DNA of 46,288 bases from Escherichia phage 2H10: the sequence record NC_049950.1, one strand, 5' to 3'. The notes under the pieces are model-generated. The model made no database searches, was not told the origin of the DNA, and was given only the letters and a program-made list of their open reading frames with translations. Each line of letters begins with the position of its first letter. Within the stretch, counting starts at the first letter, position 1. A program made the translations under genes and the position numbers. Shown here piece after piece: positions 24,390-33,990 of the stretch.

Positions 24390-24980
24390 TTATATGTCAG
24401 GTGTCTGAAGTTTTGCTTTGGCTCTTAAAATGGTTTGCCGCGAGGTTTTGAATTCCCGGGCAATGGCACTTATACTTACACCTGACTTAATCCGTTCGAA
24501 TACCACCTGTTTCTGTTCTTCATTTAACACAGGTGGTCGACCAAAACGTTTCCCTGCGCCCCGGGCTCTTACTATCCCGGAATGAGTGCGTTCAAGTAAA
24601 AGGTCTCGTTCAAATTCAGCGACTGCTGAAATTACTTGCATCATCATTTTTCCTGTTGGACTGGTCAGGTCAATGCCCCCCAATGCTAAGCAATGCACTC
24701 TGATACCTGTTTCGGTCAGTTGTTCCACTGTTTTCCTGATATCCATTGCATTACAACCAAGGCGATCCAGTTTTGTCACAATCAATTGATCACCACATTT
24801 CAGGCGAGCAAGCAACCGGTTAAAACCAGGACGCTCACTGGTTGCTGCTGAGCCGCTAATGTGTTCTTCGATTATTTGCTGAGGTTTGATTTTAAAACCT
24901 GCACTTTCGATTTCCCGGCGTTGATTTTCGGTGGTCTGATCCAGCGTTGATATCCGACAGTAAGCAAAAATTCGAGACAT
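24390..24980 (-). CDS. pin: serine recombinase, DNA invertase/resolvase family (PinQ/PinR-like of E. coli cryptic prophages)
   Basis: 196-aa product [29 protein letters not shown]... with catalytic Ser in the RIST motif, C-terminal HTH; sits directly after stf-tfa as in Rac/Qin-type prophages. Confidence 0.85.
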
Positions 24981-25359
24981 AGTGAGACTCTATACGAAAT
25001 TGGTGTACATATCATAATGCATATCCAAAAATTATTTCGCTTATTATTGTACATATTTGTATGTATACGTTCGAAAATAAACGAATTCGGATGCAGTCCC
25101 GTAATTTTGGTGTAACCAAAAATCGATTTTTTGAAAAATGGCTTTAACTCGGTTTGTTTTTCGAACTCCGGGCGGACTCGAGGAAGACGAATAATAGTGT
25201 TGTATGTTATTTCAACCAGATTTTAAGTTGTTTGGTCGTGGAAAAGTGGAGCAAAATGTTGTTAAAGTGGAAAAATGGTAAAAAAAGTAGGTTGTTGCGG
25301 AATAACGTAGTTGTTGATATTTTTTTAATGCATTGAAAAATTATTTTTCAGGGGGGGTA

Positions 25360-26201: not shown

Positions 26202-26450
26202 TTAGTGAACAAACCACTCGTCAGCAGACTCCCAGGTATCTTTCAGAGTTTCCTGAACAAAAGTTTTAGCTGAATCTTTATCGGCGGTGCGCGTAACAGA
26301 AAGGCCATCGTTGCTGGTGGCTTTTACGATCACCTCTACATCGTCATAACGCTTACTGATGCGTCGAGTTAATTCTTCCTTTAATGCATCCACAGCACCG
26401 TTTGGCATTTTAGTCATTTTCTCTTTGGCTATGCAGATCTCAATACGCAT
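26202..26450 (-). CDS. dinI: DinI-family protein (SOS-induced RecA modulator homolog)
   Basis: 82-aa product [12 protein letters not shown]...[15 protein letters not shown]...[11 protein letters not shown] closely resembles DinI/MsgA family; two LexA boxes in its promoter. Confidence 0.85.
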
Positions 26451-26465
26451 AAAAATCCCTCTACA

Positions 26466-26515
26466 CTGTGTTTGTATACAGTGTTATTTTTAACTGTATG
26501 AATAAACAGTGTCAA
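26466..26515 (-). promoter_or_regulatory. SOS-regulated promoter of the dinI-like gene with two LexA boxes
   Basis: Minus-strand TTGACA (26510-26515), 17-nt spacer, TAAAAA -10; CTGT-N8-ACAG boxes at 26494-26509 (inside the spacer) and 26466-26481 (between -10 and the ribosome-binding site). Confidence 0.75.
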
Positions 26516-26961
26516 TAGAACAAAGATTGCTGCATGTACAAATGTTCTTTGGCTACAAATACACCTACTGATCATGTTCTGCTATGCTCTGATACCTCCA
26601 AAATGTACAATCAGCGGCATGAATTTTTCTTTGTACATATGATTGTACATAATCAAAGAGACAACAATTATGACAAGCCTTTTGGCCGCAGAGGTAGCGA
26701 AAAGAAGAACCTTTGCAATTATTTCTCACCCCAATAATTAATCCCAAATTAAAGCTCTTTTACTCTTTCAAAATCCTTTCAGTTAATTGAGGTCTAGTTA
26801 TATAACTCATTTAAATACATATGGTTATGTGGCTTCTTTAATTGAAAATTCTTTCATGTAACTTTAAATCGATCAGGTTGCTTTCATCAAAAATCTGTAC
26901 ATATGCTTGTACATAATGTACAAAGCAGCAGAGGTGTTTTGCGATTTGTACAAGGTGAGTA

Positions 26962-28185
26962 ATGGCGCTGTCTGATGCGTGGTTGCGTTCAGTCGTTGGA
27001 AAGGAACGTGATAAGGTTTTGGTTAAATCCGATCGTGATGGTCTGTCTGTCAGAGTATCACCGAAAGGTCGCGTAGTGTTTCAATATCGTTATCAATGGG
27101 CAGGGAAAGGTGAGCGTCTTGATATCGGAACTTACCCGGCAACTGGATTAAAAGAGGCCAGAGAAGAAGTTATCCGTCTCCGTGGTGAACTCGAGTCAAA
27201 CCGTAATCCACGATTGGTCAAGCAGGCTGAAAAACGAAAAGCTACTGAAGCCATGACGGTAGAGTCTGTGATCCGTGCCTGGTATGAAGCATATTGTGTA
27301 AAAAATAAAAAGGGTTCTGAACAGATACTCCGCTCGTTTGAGCTGCACCTGTTCTCTAAAATCGGGAATATCCCTCACGATGCAGCTACATTGCATGATT
27401 GGTTAGAAGTCCTGGAGCCTCTTAGCACTAAGACTCCAGCAATAGCAGACCGATTGCTAATTAACGCAAAGCAGGCCCATGTCTGGGCGTATAAGAGAAA
27501 GCTTATTGAAACTCGCCCGCTGTCGGATATCACGGGTAAAGATATGGATATCCGTAAAGGTCAGAAGAAACGGTTTCTGACACACGATGAAATTAAAATT
27601 CTTTATGCTGCGATCGATGGCTCTAGAATGGTTCCCAAATACCGGGCCTTCATTAAACTATTACTGCATTTTGGTTGCCGTAGTTCGGAGCTAATTACTG
27701 CTAGGGTGGGTGATTTTGATTTCATAAATAAGGTATGGACTGTACCACCTGAACGACATAAGACAGGGGACATAACAGGCGAACCGCTAAAGCGGCCCAT
27801 TATTGAACCGGTTGAAGAGCTTATAAAATACGTTATCTCTATGAACAACGGTTCCGATATGCTTTTTACTAAGGAAGGAAGCAGGGAGCCAGTCGGTAGG
27901 ACATCATTACAGTCGCTGCCTTACAATTTAATGCAGTACGCGTGGCGGCGTTTAGGATATCAATTCCCTCATTGGTCTCTTCATGACTTGAGACGGACAG
28001 CACGAACAAATTTTTCTGATCTTACTGCGCCTCATATCGCAGAAATTATGCTTGGTCATAAGCTGCCAGGGGTATGGCAAGTTTATGATAAGAGCGATTA
28101 TCTAGAAGAACAGCGTAAAGCTTACCTGGCATGGTGGAAGAGGGTTGAATCGATTGTTAATTGTACTATCTCTGATTCAAACTGA
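26962..28185 (+). CDS. int: tyrosine integrase, P4-like family
   Basis: 407-aa product MALSDAWLRSVVGKERDKVLVKSDRDGLSVRVSPKGRVVFQYRYQWAGKGERLDIG... (P4-type arm-binding N-terminus) with C-terminal HxxR...Y catalytic region (HDLRRTARTNF...Y); AAGGTGAG ribosome-binding site. Confidence 0.9.
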   Translation: MALSDAWLRSVVGKERDKVLVKSDRDGLSVRVSPKGRVVFQYRYQWAGKGERLDIGTYPATGLKEAREEVIRLRGELESNRNPRLVKQAEKRKATEAMTVESVIRAWYEAYCVKNKKGSEQILRSFELHLFSKIGNIPHDAATLHDWLEVLEPLSTKTPAIADRLLINAKQAHVWAYKRKLIETRPLSDITGKDMDIRKGQKKRFLTHDEIKILYAAIDGSRMVPKYRAFIKLLLHFGCRSSELITARVGDFDFINKVWTVPPERHKTGDITGEPLKRPIIEPVEELIKYVISMNNGSDMLFTKEGSREPVGRTSLQSLPYNLMQYAWRRLGYQFPHWSLHDLRRTARTNFSDLTAPHIAEIMLGHKLPGVWQVYDKSDYLEEQRKAYLAWWKRVESIVNCTISDSN

Positions 28186-28470: not shown

Positions 28471-29190
28471 ATGTCAAAGTTAAAAAATGAACCATTAGTA
28501 AGGGTATCAGAAGAAGACGGAATAGAAATAAGGAAGATCCAATATCCAGATAATACGATAGAAAGAGTTTATAAGCAGAAAGGTGTAATATTACCACGAA
28601 TACCTTTAAAAGGCCGCTTTGTAGAACAATATGTGGCCTTACAGTTGCTGGATAAAGATCTTCGGAATGTTATTGGTTGGGAGAATATAATAAAAAACAT
28701 TTGTAATAACATTAATAGAGAACAACACTTTATTTATCCTGATTTAGAAAAGAATCTAATATTAAAGTCTTTATTTATATCAAAAGTTGTTACTTACGGT
28801 AAGTGTTTTACAGAGGCGAAAGGGCGTCGATTCACATTGCAGAGAAAGCATGTGCCAGAAAAATACAGAGATTTACATGATTCTATTATGAATGTTAGAC
28901 ATAACTTTGCTGCCCATAAAGGTGAATTTGAATATGATCAATGTGGCTTGGTTTTAATATTGCCGGGGACCAAGAAAAAAAGGTGCTATCATATTTTTTC
29001 AGAACTCAATCAAATAAATTATGGTAATAATGAGGAAGATGATGAACGTTTTTTTATGTTATATGATTCACTGCGTAAAGTCATTAAAGAAAAACGAGAT
29101 AAATTAATTGATAAAATATACGCTGAAAAGATTCATACTCAAACAATGGAGTATTGGTTGAGCCGAACAGGAAAAGAAACAGAGATTTAA
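28471..29190 (+). CDS. hypothetical protein, AT-rich orphan cargo gene downstream of int
   Basis: 239-aa ORF with GAGGG ribosome-binding site 5 nt upstream; GC content by eye roughly 30-35 percent versus roughly 50 percent in the phage core; no family recognised from sequence. Confidence 0.7.
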   Translation: MSKLKNEPLVRVSEEDGIEIRKIQYPDNTIERVYKQKGVILPRIPLKGRFVEQYVALQLLDKDLRNVIGWENIIKNICNNINREQHFIYPDLEKNLILKSLFISKVVTYGKCFTEAKGRRFTLQRKHVPEKYRDLHDSIMNVRHNFAAHKGEFEYDQCGLVLILPGTKKKRCYHIFSELNQINYGNNEEDDERFFMLYDSLRKVIKEKRDKLIDKIYAEKIHTQTMEYWLSRTGKETEI

Positions 29191-29472: not shown

Positions 29473-29667
29473 TTAATCAATCACTCCCGCAAATCTGTAA
29501 ATCTTGTGTGATGCCCATTTATTTGGGCAGGATTTAATATCAGGATCTGGAAAGTCAGGCCTGTATTTCTGGCCAGTTCTCCTGTTTACGCTGTTCCAGC
29601 GAAGAACTGTCGATACTGAAACACCACAGAAATCGGCGACTTGTTTAGTTGTCATTAAGTTGTTCAT
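29473..29667 (-). CDS. xis: excisionase / AlpA-family HTH DNA-binding protein
   Basis: 64-aa product MNNLMTTKQVADFCGVSVSTVLRWNSVNRRTGQKYRPDFPDP... typical of phage Xis/AlpA winged-helix family; last gene of the leftward early operon. Confidence 0.75.
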   Translation of the reverse strand: MNNLMTTKQVADFCGVSVSTVLRWNSVNRRTGQKYRPDFPDPDIKSCPNKWASHKIYRFAGVID

Positions 29668-32693: not shown

Positions 32694-32740
32694 TAAAAAG
32701 AGCGGTACCAGCCGGAAGCAAGTGTACAAACTGGTACCGC
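32694..32740 (-). terminator. intrinsic terminator-like hairpin inside the early-left leader
   Basis: Minus-strand gcggtaccag ... ctggtaccgc 10-bp GC-rich stem followed by ctcttttt; the loop contains a TTGTACA motif. Confidence 0.45.
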
Positions 32741-33158
32741 CAAAGCAGTGGCTGTTGTGGTGGGGTTGTCACTCAGGCGTATGGTCAACCTGACAATCCG
32801 GTGTCCTCAACGGGGAAAGAGTAACCCAGCCATACTTACCGCCGCGCCATTTCGCGGATGACCACAACGCTGAGAGCACTTAGCCAGTTACGGCACCACA
32901 CTTTGTCGCGGCTCCATAAATGCCCTCATCGTTGCACCCTGGTCTCTTCCCAGGCGTCAAACCGGATCGCCACGCTGGTTAGGCGTCTTATCAGCATCAT
33001 CATTGACTTGCACATTCCGGCTACCTGGTTTGTTTGCCCTAGCAAGGAGTGGATTGTCCCCTTTAACGTCCCCAGACCGCTAACGACGCATGTGCCATAC
33101 GCCGTGTTACAACCAAATTTTGTTTGAATCTTGCCTGCCTCATGTTTCTTTTGGATAC

Positions 33159-33186
33159 ATTATGTATCTCATGGGTACATTGTCAA
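33159..33186 (-). promoter_or_regulatory. strong sigma-70 promoter reading leftward (pL-like)
   Basis: Minus-strand TTGACA (33181-33186), 16-nt spacer, CATAAT (33159-33164); overlapped by a perfect palindrome GATACATtATGTATC (33154-33168) that could be an operator. Confidence 0.55.
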
Positions 33187-33916: not shown

Positions 33917-33935
33917 TTGTACCGATAAGGTACAA
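33917..33935. promoter_or_regulatory. candidate operator palindrome in the cI-cro intergenic region
   Basis: TTGTACC-gataa-GGTACAA perfect 7-bp inverted repeat 17 nt upstream of the cI start; a related half-site GGTACAT occurs at 33977 and near the pL-like promoter. Confidence 0.5.
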
Positions 33936-33990
33936 GTATCTTGAAGGTTCATTTCAATCATGTAATATGTATACTGGAGGTACATATTGT

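What the first reader, a model, noticed from the sequence alone, without database searches (positions are those of the whole stretch)
26530..26960. Cluster of TTGTACATA-type repeats flanking the integrase start: candidate arm-type sites and attP region, sharing a half-site with the cI-cro operator
TTGTACA-containing repeats occur at about 26536, 26606, 26633, 26643, 26896, 26907-26927 (palindrome TTGTACAtaaTGTACAA) and 26944, with two more at about 25003 and 25043. Direct repeats of this kind next to a tyrosine integrase gene are typical arm-binding sites. The cI-cro palindrome TTGTACC-N5-GGTACAA (33917-33935) and the loop of the leader terminator carry the same half-site, which raises the alternative that a repressor rather than the integrase binds them.
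Basis: seen in the sequence. Interest (0 to 1): 0.45.

Follow-up and report, generated by a model that had tools for sequence, protein, structure and literature searches.

The report
Integrase arm sites in prfC attP
The TGTACA repeats are real, sit on both sides of the spot where this phage recombines into the host prfC gene, and are most likely the accessory "arm" sites bound by its integrase; this is an ordinary kind of element, but the same site code is shared with relatives as distant as SXT/R391 resistance elements.

Summary
TGTACA occurs 8 times in 26535-26952, against 0.28 expected; the highest count in 5000 shuffles was 3.

The attP crossover core is ATTATTTCTCACCC at 26718-26731. It lies between two groups of four repeats, inside a phage-borne copy of the 5' end of prfC.

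The integrase (26962-28185) has an N-terminal arm-DNA-binding domain (Pfam PF13356).

In 13 other elements whose integrases are 38-86% identical, the flanking DNA has diverged but the hexamers persist. These span Enterobacterales, Pseudomonas, Vibrio, Shewanella, Acinetobacter, Moraxella and the SXT/R391 element R997. Twelve of the 13 keep TGTACA-type copies, and 11 of those 12 keep a pair about 12 nt apart. Distances to the core are fixed: 68-69 nt on one arm, and 162-167 or exactly 132 nt on the other.

A sister lineage that targets lepA keeps the same layout with every copy changed to TGTCCA/TGGACA. Its integrase N-domain differs at fixed positions.

The repressor alternative fails. Phages with the same CI but another integrase lack the cluster. 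Phages with this integrase but another repressor keep it. No att copy fits the 19-bp operator.

Binding itself is untested. Best reading: integrase arm-type sites, probably also damping int expression. This is a new member of a known kind.

The parts
26535..26540 (.). P-arm TGTACA copy 1 (distal; context gcaTGTACAaat)
   Evidence: Identical in Stx1 phage attR and in PhiR63_1. Conservation outside the E. coli lineage could not be tested.
26604..26609 (.). P-arm TGTACA copy 2 (context aaaTGTACAatc)
   Evidence: Present in all E. coli-lineage attR sequences read.
26632..26649 (+). P-arm proximal pair TGTACAtatgatTGTACA (starts 12 nt apart); it ends 20 nt before the phage-borne prfC' ATG and 68 nt before the core
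   Evidence: The same pair sits at the same distance from the core (69 nt) in the diverged attR-like ends L181 and L182. In the SXT/R391 element R997 it sits at 75 nt.
26670..26731 (+). Phage-borne replacement 5' end of prfC ([21 protein letters not shown]); after integration it is fused to host prfC at attR
   Evidence: Translation; the native sequence is [22 protein letters not shown]. attR is annotated as prfC in E. coli RM9872.
26718..26731 (+). attP common core ATTATTTCTCACCC (crossover region), identical to attB in prfC
   Evidence: The 14-bp duplication is annotated in LC727889 and LC727893. attL and attR were read directly. Junctions are present in 1122 of 5426 complete E. coli genomes.
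26765..26781 (+). CTTTCA direct pair (26765-70 and 26776-81, starts 11 nt apart); a second conserved motif and a candidate excisionase (RDF) or bending-protein site. This assignment is inference only.
   Evidence: AAnTCCTTTCA is conserved in the alignment of diverged P' arms. Copies counted.
26851..26856 (+). Third CTTTCA copy in the P' arm
26896..26913 (+). P'-arm pair TGTACAtatgctTGTACA (starts 12 nt apart), beginning 164 nt after the core
   Evidence: Invariant columns in alignment A1, whose mean column identity is 69%. A pair 12 nt apart is found 24-77 nt before the int ATG in 11 of the 12 TGTACA-type relatives (41-86% identity). One member is CGTACA in Pseudomonas and Shewanella, and the Cytophagales fragment has GGTACA copies. 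Expectation is 0.03-0.04 TGTACA per 120 nt.
26917..26922 (.). P'-arm third copy, inverted relative to the pair; it forms the palindrome TTGTACAtaaTGTACAA at 26907-26923
   Evidence: The inverted orientation is inferred from the lepA-type relatives, where the equivalent copy reads TGGACA against TGTCCA in the pair.
26947..26952 (.). int-proximal copy (TTGTACAA), directly 5' of the int Shine-Dalgarno AGGTGA and ending 9 nt before the ATG
   Evidence: A TGTACA (TGTAC in Pseudomonas) starting 15-27 nt before the int ATG is present in 9 of the 12 TGTACA-type relatives. It is absent in Pantoea alfalfae and Morganella; Moraxella's nearest copy, at 24 nt, is the second member of its pair.
26962..28185 (+). 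Tyrosine integrase, 407 aa, heterobivalent type (arm-binding, core-binding and catalytic domains)
   Evidence: Pfam PF13356 Arm-DNA-bind_3 (residues 3-90, E=1.9e-16), PF22022 and PF00589. The N-domain matches the PDB entries 3JTZ and 3JU0. The cdtI integrase clusters with Int of SXT (PMC8138268).
29473..29667 (-). Candidate excisionase (RDF), 64 aa, helix-turn-helix
   Evidence: phrog_1553 'excisionase', E=6e-36; weak HTH_17 match. It is found in 31 phage records, the same number as carry the integrase at 95% identity or more, and the listed names overlap. Full set identity was not cross-checked.

Best explanation
The eight TGTACA copies are most likely the arm-type binding sites of the phage's heterobivalent tyrosine integrase, within a roughly 420-bp attP. 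The catalytic and core-binding domains act at the core ATTATTTCTCACCC (26718-26731). That core lies inside a phage-borne copy of the 5' end of prfC. The N-terminal arm-binding domain of the same integrase molecules would hold the TGTACA sites on the P arm (26535-26649) and the P' arm (26896-26952). This would fold attP into the complex needed for integration into, and excision from, host prfC. The P' sites lie in the last 66 nt before the int start, in a module where int cannot be read from the leftward early operon. The same sites therefore probably let the integrase repress its own gene, as shown for IntS of prophage KplE1. What is shown: the enrichment, the position of the core, the domain content of the integrase, the co-inheritance and fixed geometry of the sites across the integrase family, and the coordinated change of the motif in a sister lineage. 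What is inferred: that the integrase N-domain is the binding protein, and that binding lowers int transcription.
For: (1) Enrichment: 8 copies against 0.28 expected. (2) The copies flank a mapped core, four on each side. (3) The integrase carries PF13356 Arm-DNA-bind_3. (4) Phylogenetic footprint: in attL of prophages with integrases 61-86% identical (Trabulsiella, Pantoea, Serratia, Symbiopectobacterium), the arm has diverged to 69% mean column identity, but the TGTACA columns are invariant. (5) The same layout (a pair 12 nt apart, usually a copy near the int start, and in some a third copy or half-copy next to the pair) occurs with integrases of 41-57% identity. These are in Pantoea, Pseudomonas, Vibrio, Shewanella and Morganella, Acinetobacter phage ABMM1 and Moraxella phage Mcat16. 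Expectation is 0.03-0.04 copies per 120 nt. (6) In the SXT/R391 element R997 (Int 38% identical), int is not next to attP. Its attP still has a TGTACA pair 18 nt before its own prfC' ATG, and two more pairs on the other arm. This separates the sites from the int promoter and ties them to recombination. (7) Spacing is conserved although the sequence between is not. The P-arm pair lies 68-69 nt from the core in three lineages. The P' pair lies 162-167 nt from the core in six enterobacterial lineages, and exactly 132 nt in Pseudomonas, Vibrio and Shewanella. The difference of about 31 nt is close to three helical turns. (8) Natural specificity switch: the lepA-targeting relatives SPN3UB and pFL6-60 (44-46% identity) keep the geometry (-74, -62, -46, -22, plus a pair on the other arm). 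Their copies read TGTCCA/TGGACA; in SPN3UB the -62 copy is the 5/6 variant CGTCCA. Their N-domains differ at positions that are otherwise invariant or nearly so: K14R, R/K37A, Q41F, R52K, D54T. (9) Autoregulation has precedent: in KplE1, attL overlaps the intS promoter, and IntS and TorI repress it (PMC2951348).
Against: No binding or recombination data exist for these sites, and no tool here tests binding. TGTACA is a perfect palindrome, which is unusual for arm sites read by a monomeric domain. However, the TGTCCA variant shows that the sites have an orientation. The elements' excisionases are also distant homologues of each other at about 30% identity. An excisionase that co-evolved with the sites could therefore give the same comparative pattern. 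No sigma-70-like promoter was found on the + strand before int, so the autoregulation step has no mapped promoter. No consensus IHF site was found in attP. The two distal P-arm copies (26535, 26604) could be checked only within the E. coli lineage.
Confidence: 0.75

Rival explanations
1. The TGTACA copies are binding sites of the excisionase (RDF, 29473-29667) rather than of the integrase. They would bend the arms for excision and shut off int.
For: The RDF co-occurs with this integrase: 31 phage records carry each. RDFs of the related elements are distant homologues and could co-evolve with a motif. In KplE1 the RDF TorI binds repeated sites in attL next to the int promoter and represses it.
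Against: RDF sites characterised so far (lambda Xis, TorI) lie on one arm. Here the motif sits on both arms in every family member examined. A second conserved repeat, CTTTCA with an 11-nt pair at 26765-26781 plus 26851, lies only on the int-proximal arm. That repeat is the better RDF candidate.
Confidence: 0.1
2. The phage repressor CI binds the repeats because they share a half-site with the cI-cro operator.
For: The operator TTGTACCgataaGGTACAA (33917-33935) shares TTGTAC with the att copies.
Against: The operators (33141-60, 33161-80, 33917-35, 33966-85) fit aTGTAyC-N5-GGTACAt. No att copy matches this 19-bp dyad within 3 mismatches. The att palindrome is TTGTACA-N3-TGTACAA, a different spacing. 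SfV has the same CI (99%) but another integrase; it has only 3 TGTACA in 37 kb, none at its attP. Stx1 phage LC727893 has a repressor only 32% identical, and PhiR63_1 has a CI with no detectable similarity in the DNA-binding domain. Both keep all eight copies.
Confidence: 0.02
3. A host DNA-binding protein, such as a global regulator or nucleoid protein, recognises TGTACA.
For: The motif is a short palindrome of the kind dimeric regulators read. No consensus IHF site was found, so some host bending factor is still unaccounted for.
Against: The motif is conserved in elements of very different hosts, from Moraxella, Acinetobacter, Pseudomonas, Vibrio and Shewanella to E. coli. Yet it switches to TGTCCA in Salmonella and Edwardsiella elements, whose hosts are close to E. 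coli. The motif tracks the element's integrase lineage, not the host.
Confidence: 0.05
4. The copies are only promoter or operator elements for int and for the rebuilt prfC gene, with no role in recombination.
For: One pair lies 20 nt before the prfC' ATG, and four copies lie within 66 nt of the int ATG. CATAAT within TGTACATAAT is a plausible -10 element (direct reading of the sequence).
Against: In R997, int is not adjacent to attP, yet pairs sit on both arms. Distances to the core are conserved, at 68-69 nt and at 132 or 162-167 nt. The promoter scan found nothing on the + strand.
Confidence: 0.07

Closest known systems
Arm-type sites of heterobivalent tyrosine integrases (lambda Int P1, P2, P'1-P'3)
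   Same: Short repeats, unlike the core sequence, lie on both arms of attP within about 220 bp of the crossover. The integrase has an N-terminal arm-binding domain of the same Pfam clan.
   Different: There are eight copies of a palindromic hexamer, arranged as 12-nt pairs plus an inverted copy. attP lies upstream of int, so the sites overlap the int control region. No IHF consensus was found. Binding is untested.
KplE1 (CPS-53) IntS/TorI module (Panis et al. 2010, PMC2951348)
   Same: int reads away from the attachment site. The arm next to int overlaps the int regulatory region. In KplE1 the integrase and RDF bind repeats there and repress int. The window's int-proximal arm likewise carries two kinds of repeat, TGTACA and CTTTCA.
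   Different: The motifs differ (KplE1 P' sites share TAAA; TorI sites are GTTCG-like). The target differs: a tRNA gene in KplE1, the 5' end of prfC here. The int promoter is not mapped here.
SXT/R391 ICE integration module (Int of SXT, prfC 5' end; Hochhut & Waldor 1999, cited in PMC5812530 and PMC8138268)
   Same: The integrase belongs to the same cluster. The attB is the same, with core ATTATTTCCCACCC in R997. The element supplies a new prfC 5' end. A TGTACA pair lies 18-20 nt before that ATG, and further pairs lie on the other arm.
   Different: Int is only 38% identical. In SXT/R391, int is not next to attP and is driven by the SetCD-activated Ps003 promoter (PMC4344509). Its pairs on the other arm are spaced 13 nt apart and lie at about +143 and +380 nt.
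Phage cdtI, and Stx1/Stx2c phages integrated at prfC
   Same: The integrase is 97-98% identical with the same attP. All eight copies were read in Stx1 phage LC727893 and in PhiR63_1; cdtI matches this region at 96% but its copies were not read individually. The 14-bp duplication is already annotated.
   Different: The records and papers I could search annotate the integration site but not the repeats.

Membership tests
attP of a site-specific tyrosine integrase | A core sequence identical to the bacterial attB, duplicated at both prophage ends | tested here: met
   ATTATTTCTCACCC (26718-26731) is found at attL and attR. The duplication is annotated in LC727889 and LC727893.
attP of a site-specific tyrosine integrase | An adjacent integrase gene with a catalytic tyrosine-recombinase domain | tested here: met
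   PF00589, E=6e-17, residues 205-379.
Arm-type sites of a heterobivalent integrase | The integrase has an N-terminal arm-DNA-binding domain | tested here: met
   PF13356, residues 3-90, E=1.9e-16. PDB 3JTZ and 3JU0 are homologues of the N-domain.
Arm-type sites of a heterobivalent integrase | Repeats that differ from the core sequence, on both arms, more frequent than chance | tested here: met
   Four plus four copies against 0.28 expected.
Arm-type sites of a heterobivalent integrase | Sites are conserved and co-vary with the integrase lineage, with constrained spacing to the core | tested here: met
   including the TGTACA to TGTCCA switch in the lepA-type lineage.
Arm-type sites of a heterobivalent integrase | Direct binding by the integrase N-domain, and a requirement for recombination | not testable with these tools
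   This needs gel shift or footprinting and recombination assays.
CI operator (SfV-type immunity) | Match to the 19-bp dyad aTGTAyC-N5-GGTACAt | tested here: not met
   No hit in 26400-27000 within 3 mismatches.
CI operator (SfV-type immunity) | Co-occurrence with the CI type | tested here: not met
   SfV has this CI but no cluster. LC727893 and PhiR63_1 have other repressors but keep the cluster.
RDF (excisionase) binding sites | Phased direct repeats confined to one arm | tested here: not met
   TGTACA lies on both arms and in both orientations. The CTTTCA repeats fit this criterion better.
Negatively autoregulated int (KplE1 type) | The int promoter overlaps integrase-binding sites in the int-proximal arm | tested here: inconclusive
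   The sites lie 15-66 nt before the ATG, but the scan found no + strand promoter.

The most novel reading that the evidence does not exclude
TGTACA may be a shared 'arm code' for the whole prfC-targeting integrase cluster, from cdtI and Stx lambdoid phages to SXT/R391 resistance ICEs. The two kinds of element also share attB. The integrase of one could therefore assemble on the attP, attL or attR of the other, allowing cross-excision, cross-integration or exclusion between Stx/Cdt phages and SXT/R391 elements. In addition, the pair 18-20 nt before the element-supplied prfC start could put release factor 3 expression under integrase control.
Probability: 0.2. Interest if true: 0.55.

Novelty: new member of a known kind. 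Interest (0 to 1): 0.35.

Why it matters
About one in five complete E. coli genomes carries a prophage junction of this type at prfC. These include Stx1, Stx2c and Cdt-I converting phages. Knowing the likely arm sites gives a concrete, testable map of their attP: core, two arms, candidate RDF sites and a replacement prfC start. It also offers a natural specificity pair, TGTACA against TGTCCA with a short list of N-domain residue changes, for studying how DUF4102-type arm domains read DNA. Finally, it links phage modules to those of the SXT/R391 resistance elements. The kind of element is textbook, so a specialist would not be surprised.

Tried and rejected
1. A strict and a relaxed IHF consensus search in 26450-26970 gave no hits.

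2. The sigma-70 scan of 26400-27000 found no + strand promoter for int or prfC'. It found only the dinI-side promoter on the minus strand.

3. I tried to obtain attR (P-arm) sequences of the diverged prophages. Integrase searches in IMG/VR returned almost only E. coli-type copies or 30-38% paralogues. A degenerate prfC-junction pattern gave three loci. L181 and L182 carry the pair. L180 has no TGTACA and may be a native prfC upstream region.

4. The copies at 25004/25048 lie in an invertase-upstream segment shared at 90% with mEp460 and Turner, which have other integrases. There the hexamers read TGTTCA and TGTGCA. I treat these copies as linked inheritance or chance, not as part of attP.

5. 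Absence of homologues could not exclude the RDF as binder, because the RDFs are distantly related to one another.

6. Burrus & Waldor 2003 on SXT attP (PMC181012) is not held. Three full-text searches found no description of these repeats.

7. The TGTACA in the loop of the hairpin at 32704-32740 is a single copy and was not pursued.

Full report
**1. The observation**

The region was read directly. TGTACA starts at 26535, 26604, 26632, 26644, 26896, 26908, 26917 and 26947. Further copies are at 25004 and 25048, and only four more occur in the rest of the 46,288-nt window. The interval 26451-26961 is AT-rich (33% G+C against 50% for the window). Even so, 5000 dinucleotide-preserving shuffles of that interval give a mean of 0.28 copies and never more than 3. 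TGTACA is the commonest hexamer there. The palindrome TTGTACAtaaTGTACAA spans 26907-26923.

**2. What surrounds it**

- 26962-28185 (+) encodes a 407-aa tyrosine integrase with Arm-DNA-bind_3 (PF13356), Phage_int_M and Phage_integrase domains.
- 26202-26450 (-) encodes a DinI-like protein.
- The window is a lambdoid phage closest to cdtI, Ayreon, PhiR63_1 and Stx1/Stx2c phages.
- Megablast of 26450-26960 against complete E. coli genomes splits the query. Bases 26450-26731 are joined to prfC (attR), and the rest is joined to the region upstream of prfC (attL). This is seen in 1122 of 5426 genomes.
- Reading attL and attR, together with the 14-bp 'duplication due to insertion' annotated in LC727889 and LC727893, places the common core at ATTATTTCTCACCC, 26718-26731.
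- The phage carries its own ATG at 26670 and 21 codons ([21 protein letters not shown]). These replace the native [22 protein letters not shown] after integration.
- The repeats therefore flank the attP core. Four lie 68-177 nt to its left and four lie 164-215 nt to its right.

**3. Comparative evidence**

*Diverged prophages in prfC.* Relatives of the integrase were fetched from genomes, IMG/VR, phage and plasmid records and assemblies. In prophages inserted in prfC of Trabulsiella, Pantoea, Serratia and Symbiopectobacterium (Int 61-86% identical), the int-proximal arm has diverged to 69% mean column identity. The TGTACA columns are nevertheless invariant.

*Integrases of 41-57% identity.* The pattern continues in Pantoea alfalfae, Pseudomonas, Vibrio diabolicus, Shewanella and a circular Morganella phage, in Acinetobacter phage ABMM1 and in Moraxella phage Mcat16. 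Each has a (T/C)GTACA pair with starts 12 nt apart, 24-77 nt before the int ATG. Most also have a copy 15-27 nt before the ATG. Expectation is 0.03-0.04 copies per 120 nt. ABMM1, whose complete attP is available, also has a 12-nt pair on the other arm.

*Diverged attR-like ends.* Two such ends, L181 and L182, carry the pair 18 nt before their own prfC' ATG.

*SXT/R391 element R997 (Int 38% identical).* It has TGTACAaatccgTGTACA 18 nt before its prfC' ATG, followed by the core ATTATTTCCCACCC. Two more pairs lie on the other arm. In R997, int is not adjacent to attP.

*Spacing is conserved where sequence is not.*

| Arm | Distance to core | Lineages |
|---|---|---|
| P-arm pair | 68-69 nt | three lineages |
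| P-arm pair | 75 nt | R997 |
| P' pair | 162-167 nt | six enterobacterial lineages |
| P' pair | exactly 132 nt | Pseudomonas, Vibrio, Shewanella |

The two P' classes differ by about three helical turns.

**4. A natural specificity switch**

Salmonella phage SPN3UB and the Edwardsiella element pFL6-60 (Int 44-46% identical) carry a lepA-like 5' end (MKNIRNFSIIAHID) in place of the prfC one. They have the same site layout: a direct pair at -74/-62, inverted copies at -46 and -22, and a pair on the other arm. Their copies read TGTCCA/TGGACA; in SPN3UB the -62 copy is the 5/6 variant CGTCCA.

Their integrase N-domains differ from all 14 TGTACA-type sequences at positions that are otherwise invariant or nearly so. 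These include K14R, S29W, P34K, R/K37A, Q41F, R52K and D54T. This is what one expects if an element-encoded protein, most simply the arm-binding domain, reads the hexamer. It rests on two lineages only.

**5. The repressor alternative**

CI here is the SfV/SfIV type (99% identical). Its operators are 33141-60 and 33161-80 at PL, and 33917-35 and 33966-85 at PR. They fit aTGTAyC-N5-GGTACAt.

- No att copy matches this dyad within three mismatches.
- SfV has the same CI with a different integrase. It has three TGTACA in 37 kb and none at its attP.
- Stx1 phage LC727893 has a repressor only 32% identical. PhiR63_1 has a CI with no detectable similarity in the DNA-binding part. Both have this integrase and all eight copies.

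The shared TGTAC is therefore a coincidence.

**6. Other candidates**

*Excisionase.* The 64-aa product of 29473-29667 (-) is an excisionase-family protein (phrog_1553, E=6e-36). It occurs in 31 phage records, the same number as carry the close integrase. RDFs of the relatives are about 30% identical to each other, so an RDF could in principle co-evolve with the motif. The motif's presence on both arms argues against this. A second conserved repeat lies only on the int-proximal arm: CTTTCA at 26765, 26776 and 26851, with AAnTCCTTTCA conserved in the alignment. It is a better RDF candidate.

*Host factor.* This is unlikely because the motif follows the integrase lineage rather than the host.

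**7. Mechanism proposed**

I propose that the integrase N-domains bind the TGTACA sites while the C-terminal domains act at the core, assembling attP for recombination with prfC. int is transcribed away from attP and opposite to the PL operon, so it needs its own promoter in the P' arm. Occupancy of the sites 15-66 nt before the ATG probably represses int, as shown for IntS of KplE1 (PMC2951348).

No promoter was found by the scan, so this step is inference. The pair just before the prfC' start may also influence expression of the rebuilt prfC. This is untested.

**8. Relation to what is known**

Integration of cdtI and SXT at prfC, and the clustering of their integrases, are published (PMC8138268; PMC5812530). 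The 14-bp duplication is annotated in GenBank. I found no description of the TGTACA repeats as arm sites in the library I could search, and a key SXT paper is not held.

This is a new member of a known kind. The family-wide conservation reaching SXT/R391, and the TGTCCA variant, are the parts that add something.

**9. The copies at 25004 and 25048**

They lie upstream of a Pin-like invertase gene (24390-24980, -), in a segment shared at 90% with phages that carry other integrases. In those phages the two hexamers read TGTTCA and TGTGCA. Phages with the prfC integrase have TGTACA at both positions. With only two lineages and tight linkage, this cannot be told apart from chance.

Noticed in passing
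window 26466-26481 and 26494-26509: Two LexA-box-like sequences (CTGTgtttgtatACAG and CTGTatgaataaACAG) overlap a strong minus-strand promoter (TTGACA, 18 nt, AAAAAT; 26515 to 26486) upstream of the DinI-like gene 26202-26450. This suggests an SOS-controlled dinI homologue at the right prophage end, next to the P arm.
   Followed up: partly
window 26670-26731: The phage carries its own start codon and 21 codons of prfC. Lysogens therefore make RF3 with a phage-encoded N-terminus and phage-supplied upstream DNA. The same design is seen in the SXT/R391 element R997 (L201/L198).
   Followed up: yes
L187 1250-1300 (SPN3UB); L199 1050-1100 (pFL6-60): Sister integrases (44-46% identical) have an attP carrying a lepA-like 5' end (MKNIRNFSIIAHID). 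This subfamily seems to target the 5' ends of two different translational GTPase genes at the equivalent G1-motif codons. Its arm motif is changed to TGTCCA.
   Followed up: partly
window 24390-25125: A Pin/Hin-like serine invertase gene lies at 24390-24980 (-). A hix-like imperfect palindrome TTTTGGTgtaACCAAAA lies at 25105-25121. Two TGTACATAT copies at 25004 and 25048 read TGTTCA and TGTGCA in phages with other integrases.
   Followed up: partly
window 33141-33186 and 33917-33985: The CI operator set has two adjacent 20-nt units overlapping a near-consensus leftward promoter (TTGACA, 16 nt, CATAAT; 33186 to 33159). At least two more units lie between cI and cro. The consensus is aTGTAyC-N5-GGTACAt. 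The immunity region is the SfV/SfIV type.
   Followed up: partly
window 28471-29190: A 239-aa ORF of unknown function (phrog_8440; no Pfam or NCBIfam hit) lies between int and the excisionase. In cdtI and Ayreon this slot holds a different, much larger ORF. It looks like a variable cargo position.
   Followed up: no
L194 1000-1130, L195 995-1125: The P' arms of the Pseudomonas and Vibrio islands share a different repeat (GACAAGCTGAG-like) between the core and the TGTACA pair. In the E. coli phages this position is occupied by the CTTTCA repeats. These may be lineage-specific RDF sites.
   Followed up: no
window 32704-32740: A hairpin CGGTACCAG...CTGGTACCG has a single TGTACA in its loop. It is an isolated copy with no sign of a link to attP.
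   Followed up: no
L180 4300-4440: An IMG/VR contig ends in a prfC start ([20 protein letters not shown]) that resembles the R997-supplied N-terminus, but it has no TGTACA in the 500 nt upstream. It is unclear whether this is a native prfC or another element's junction.
   Followed up: no
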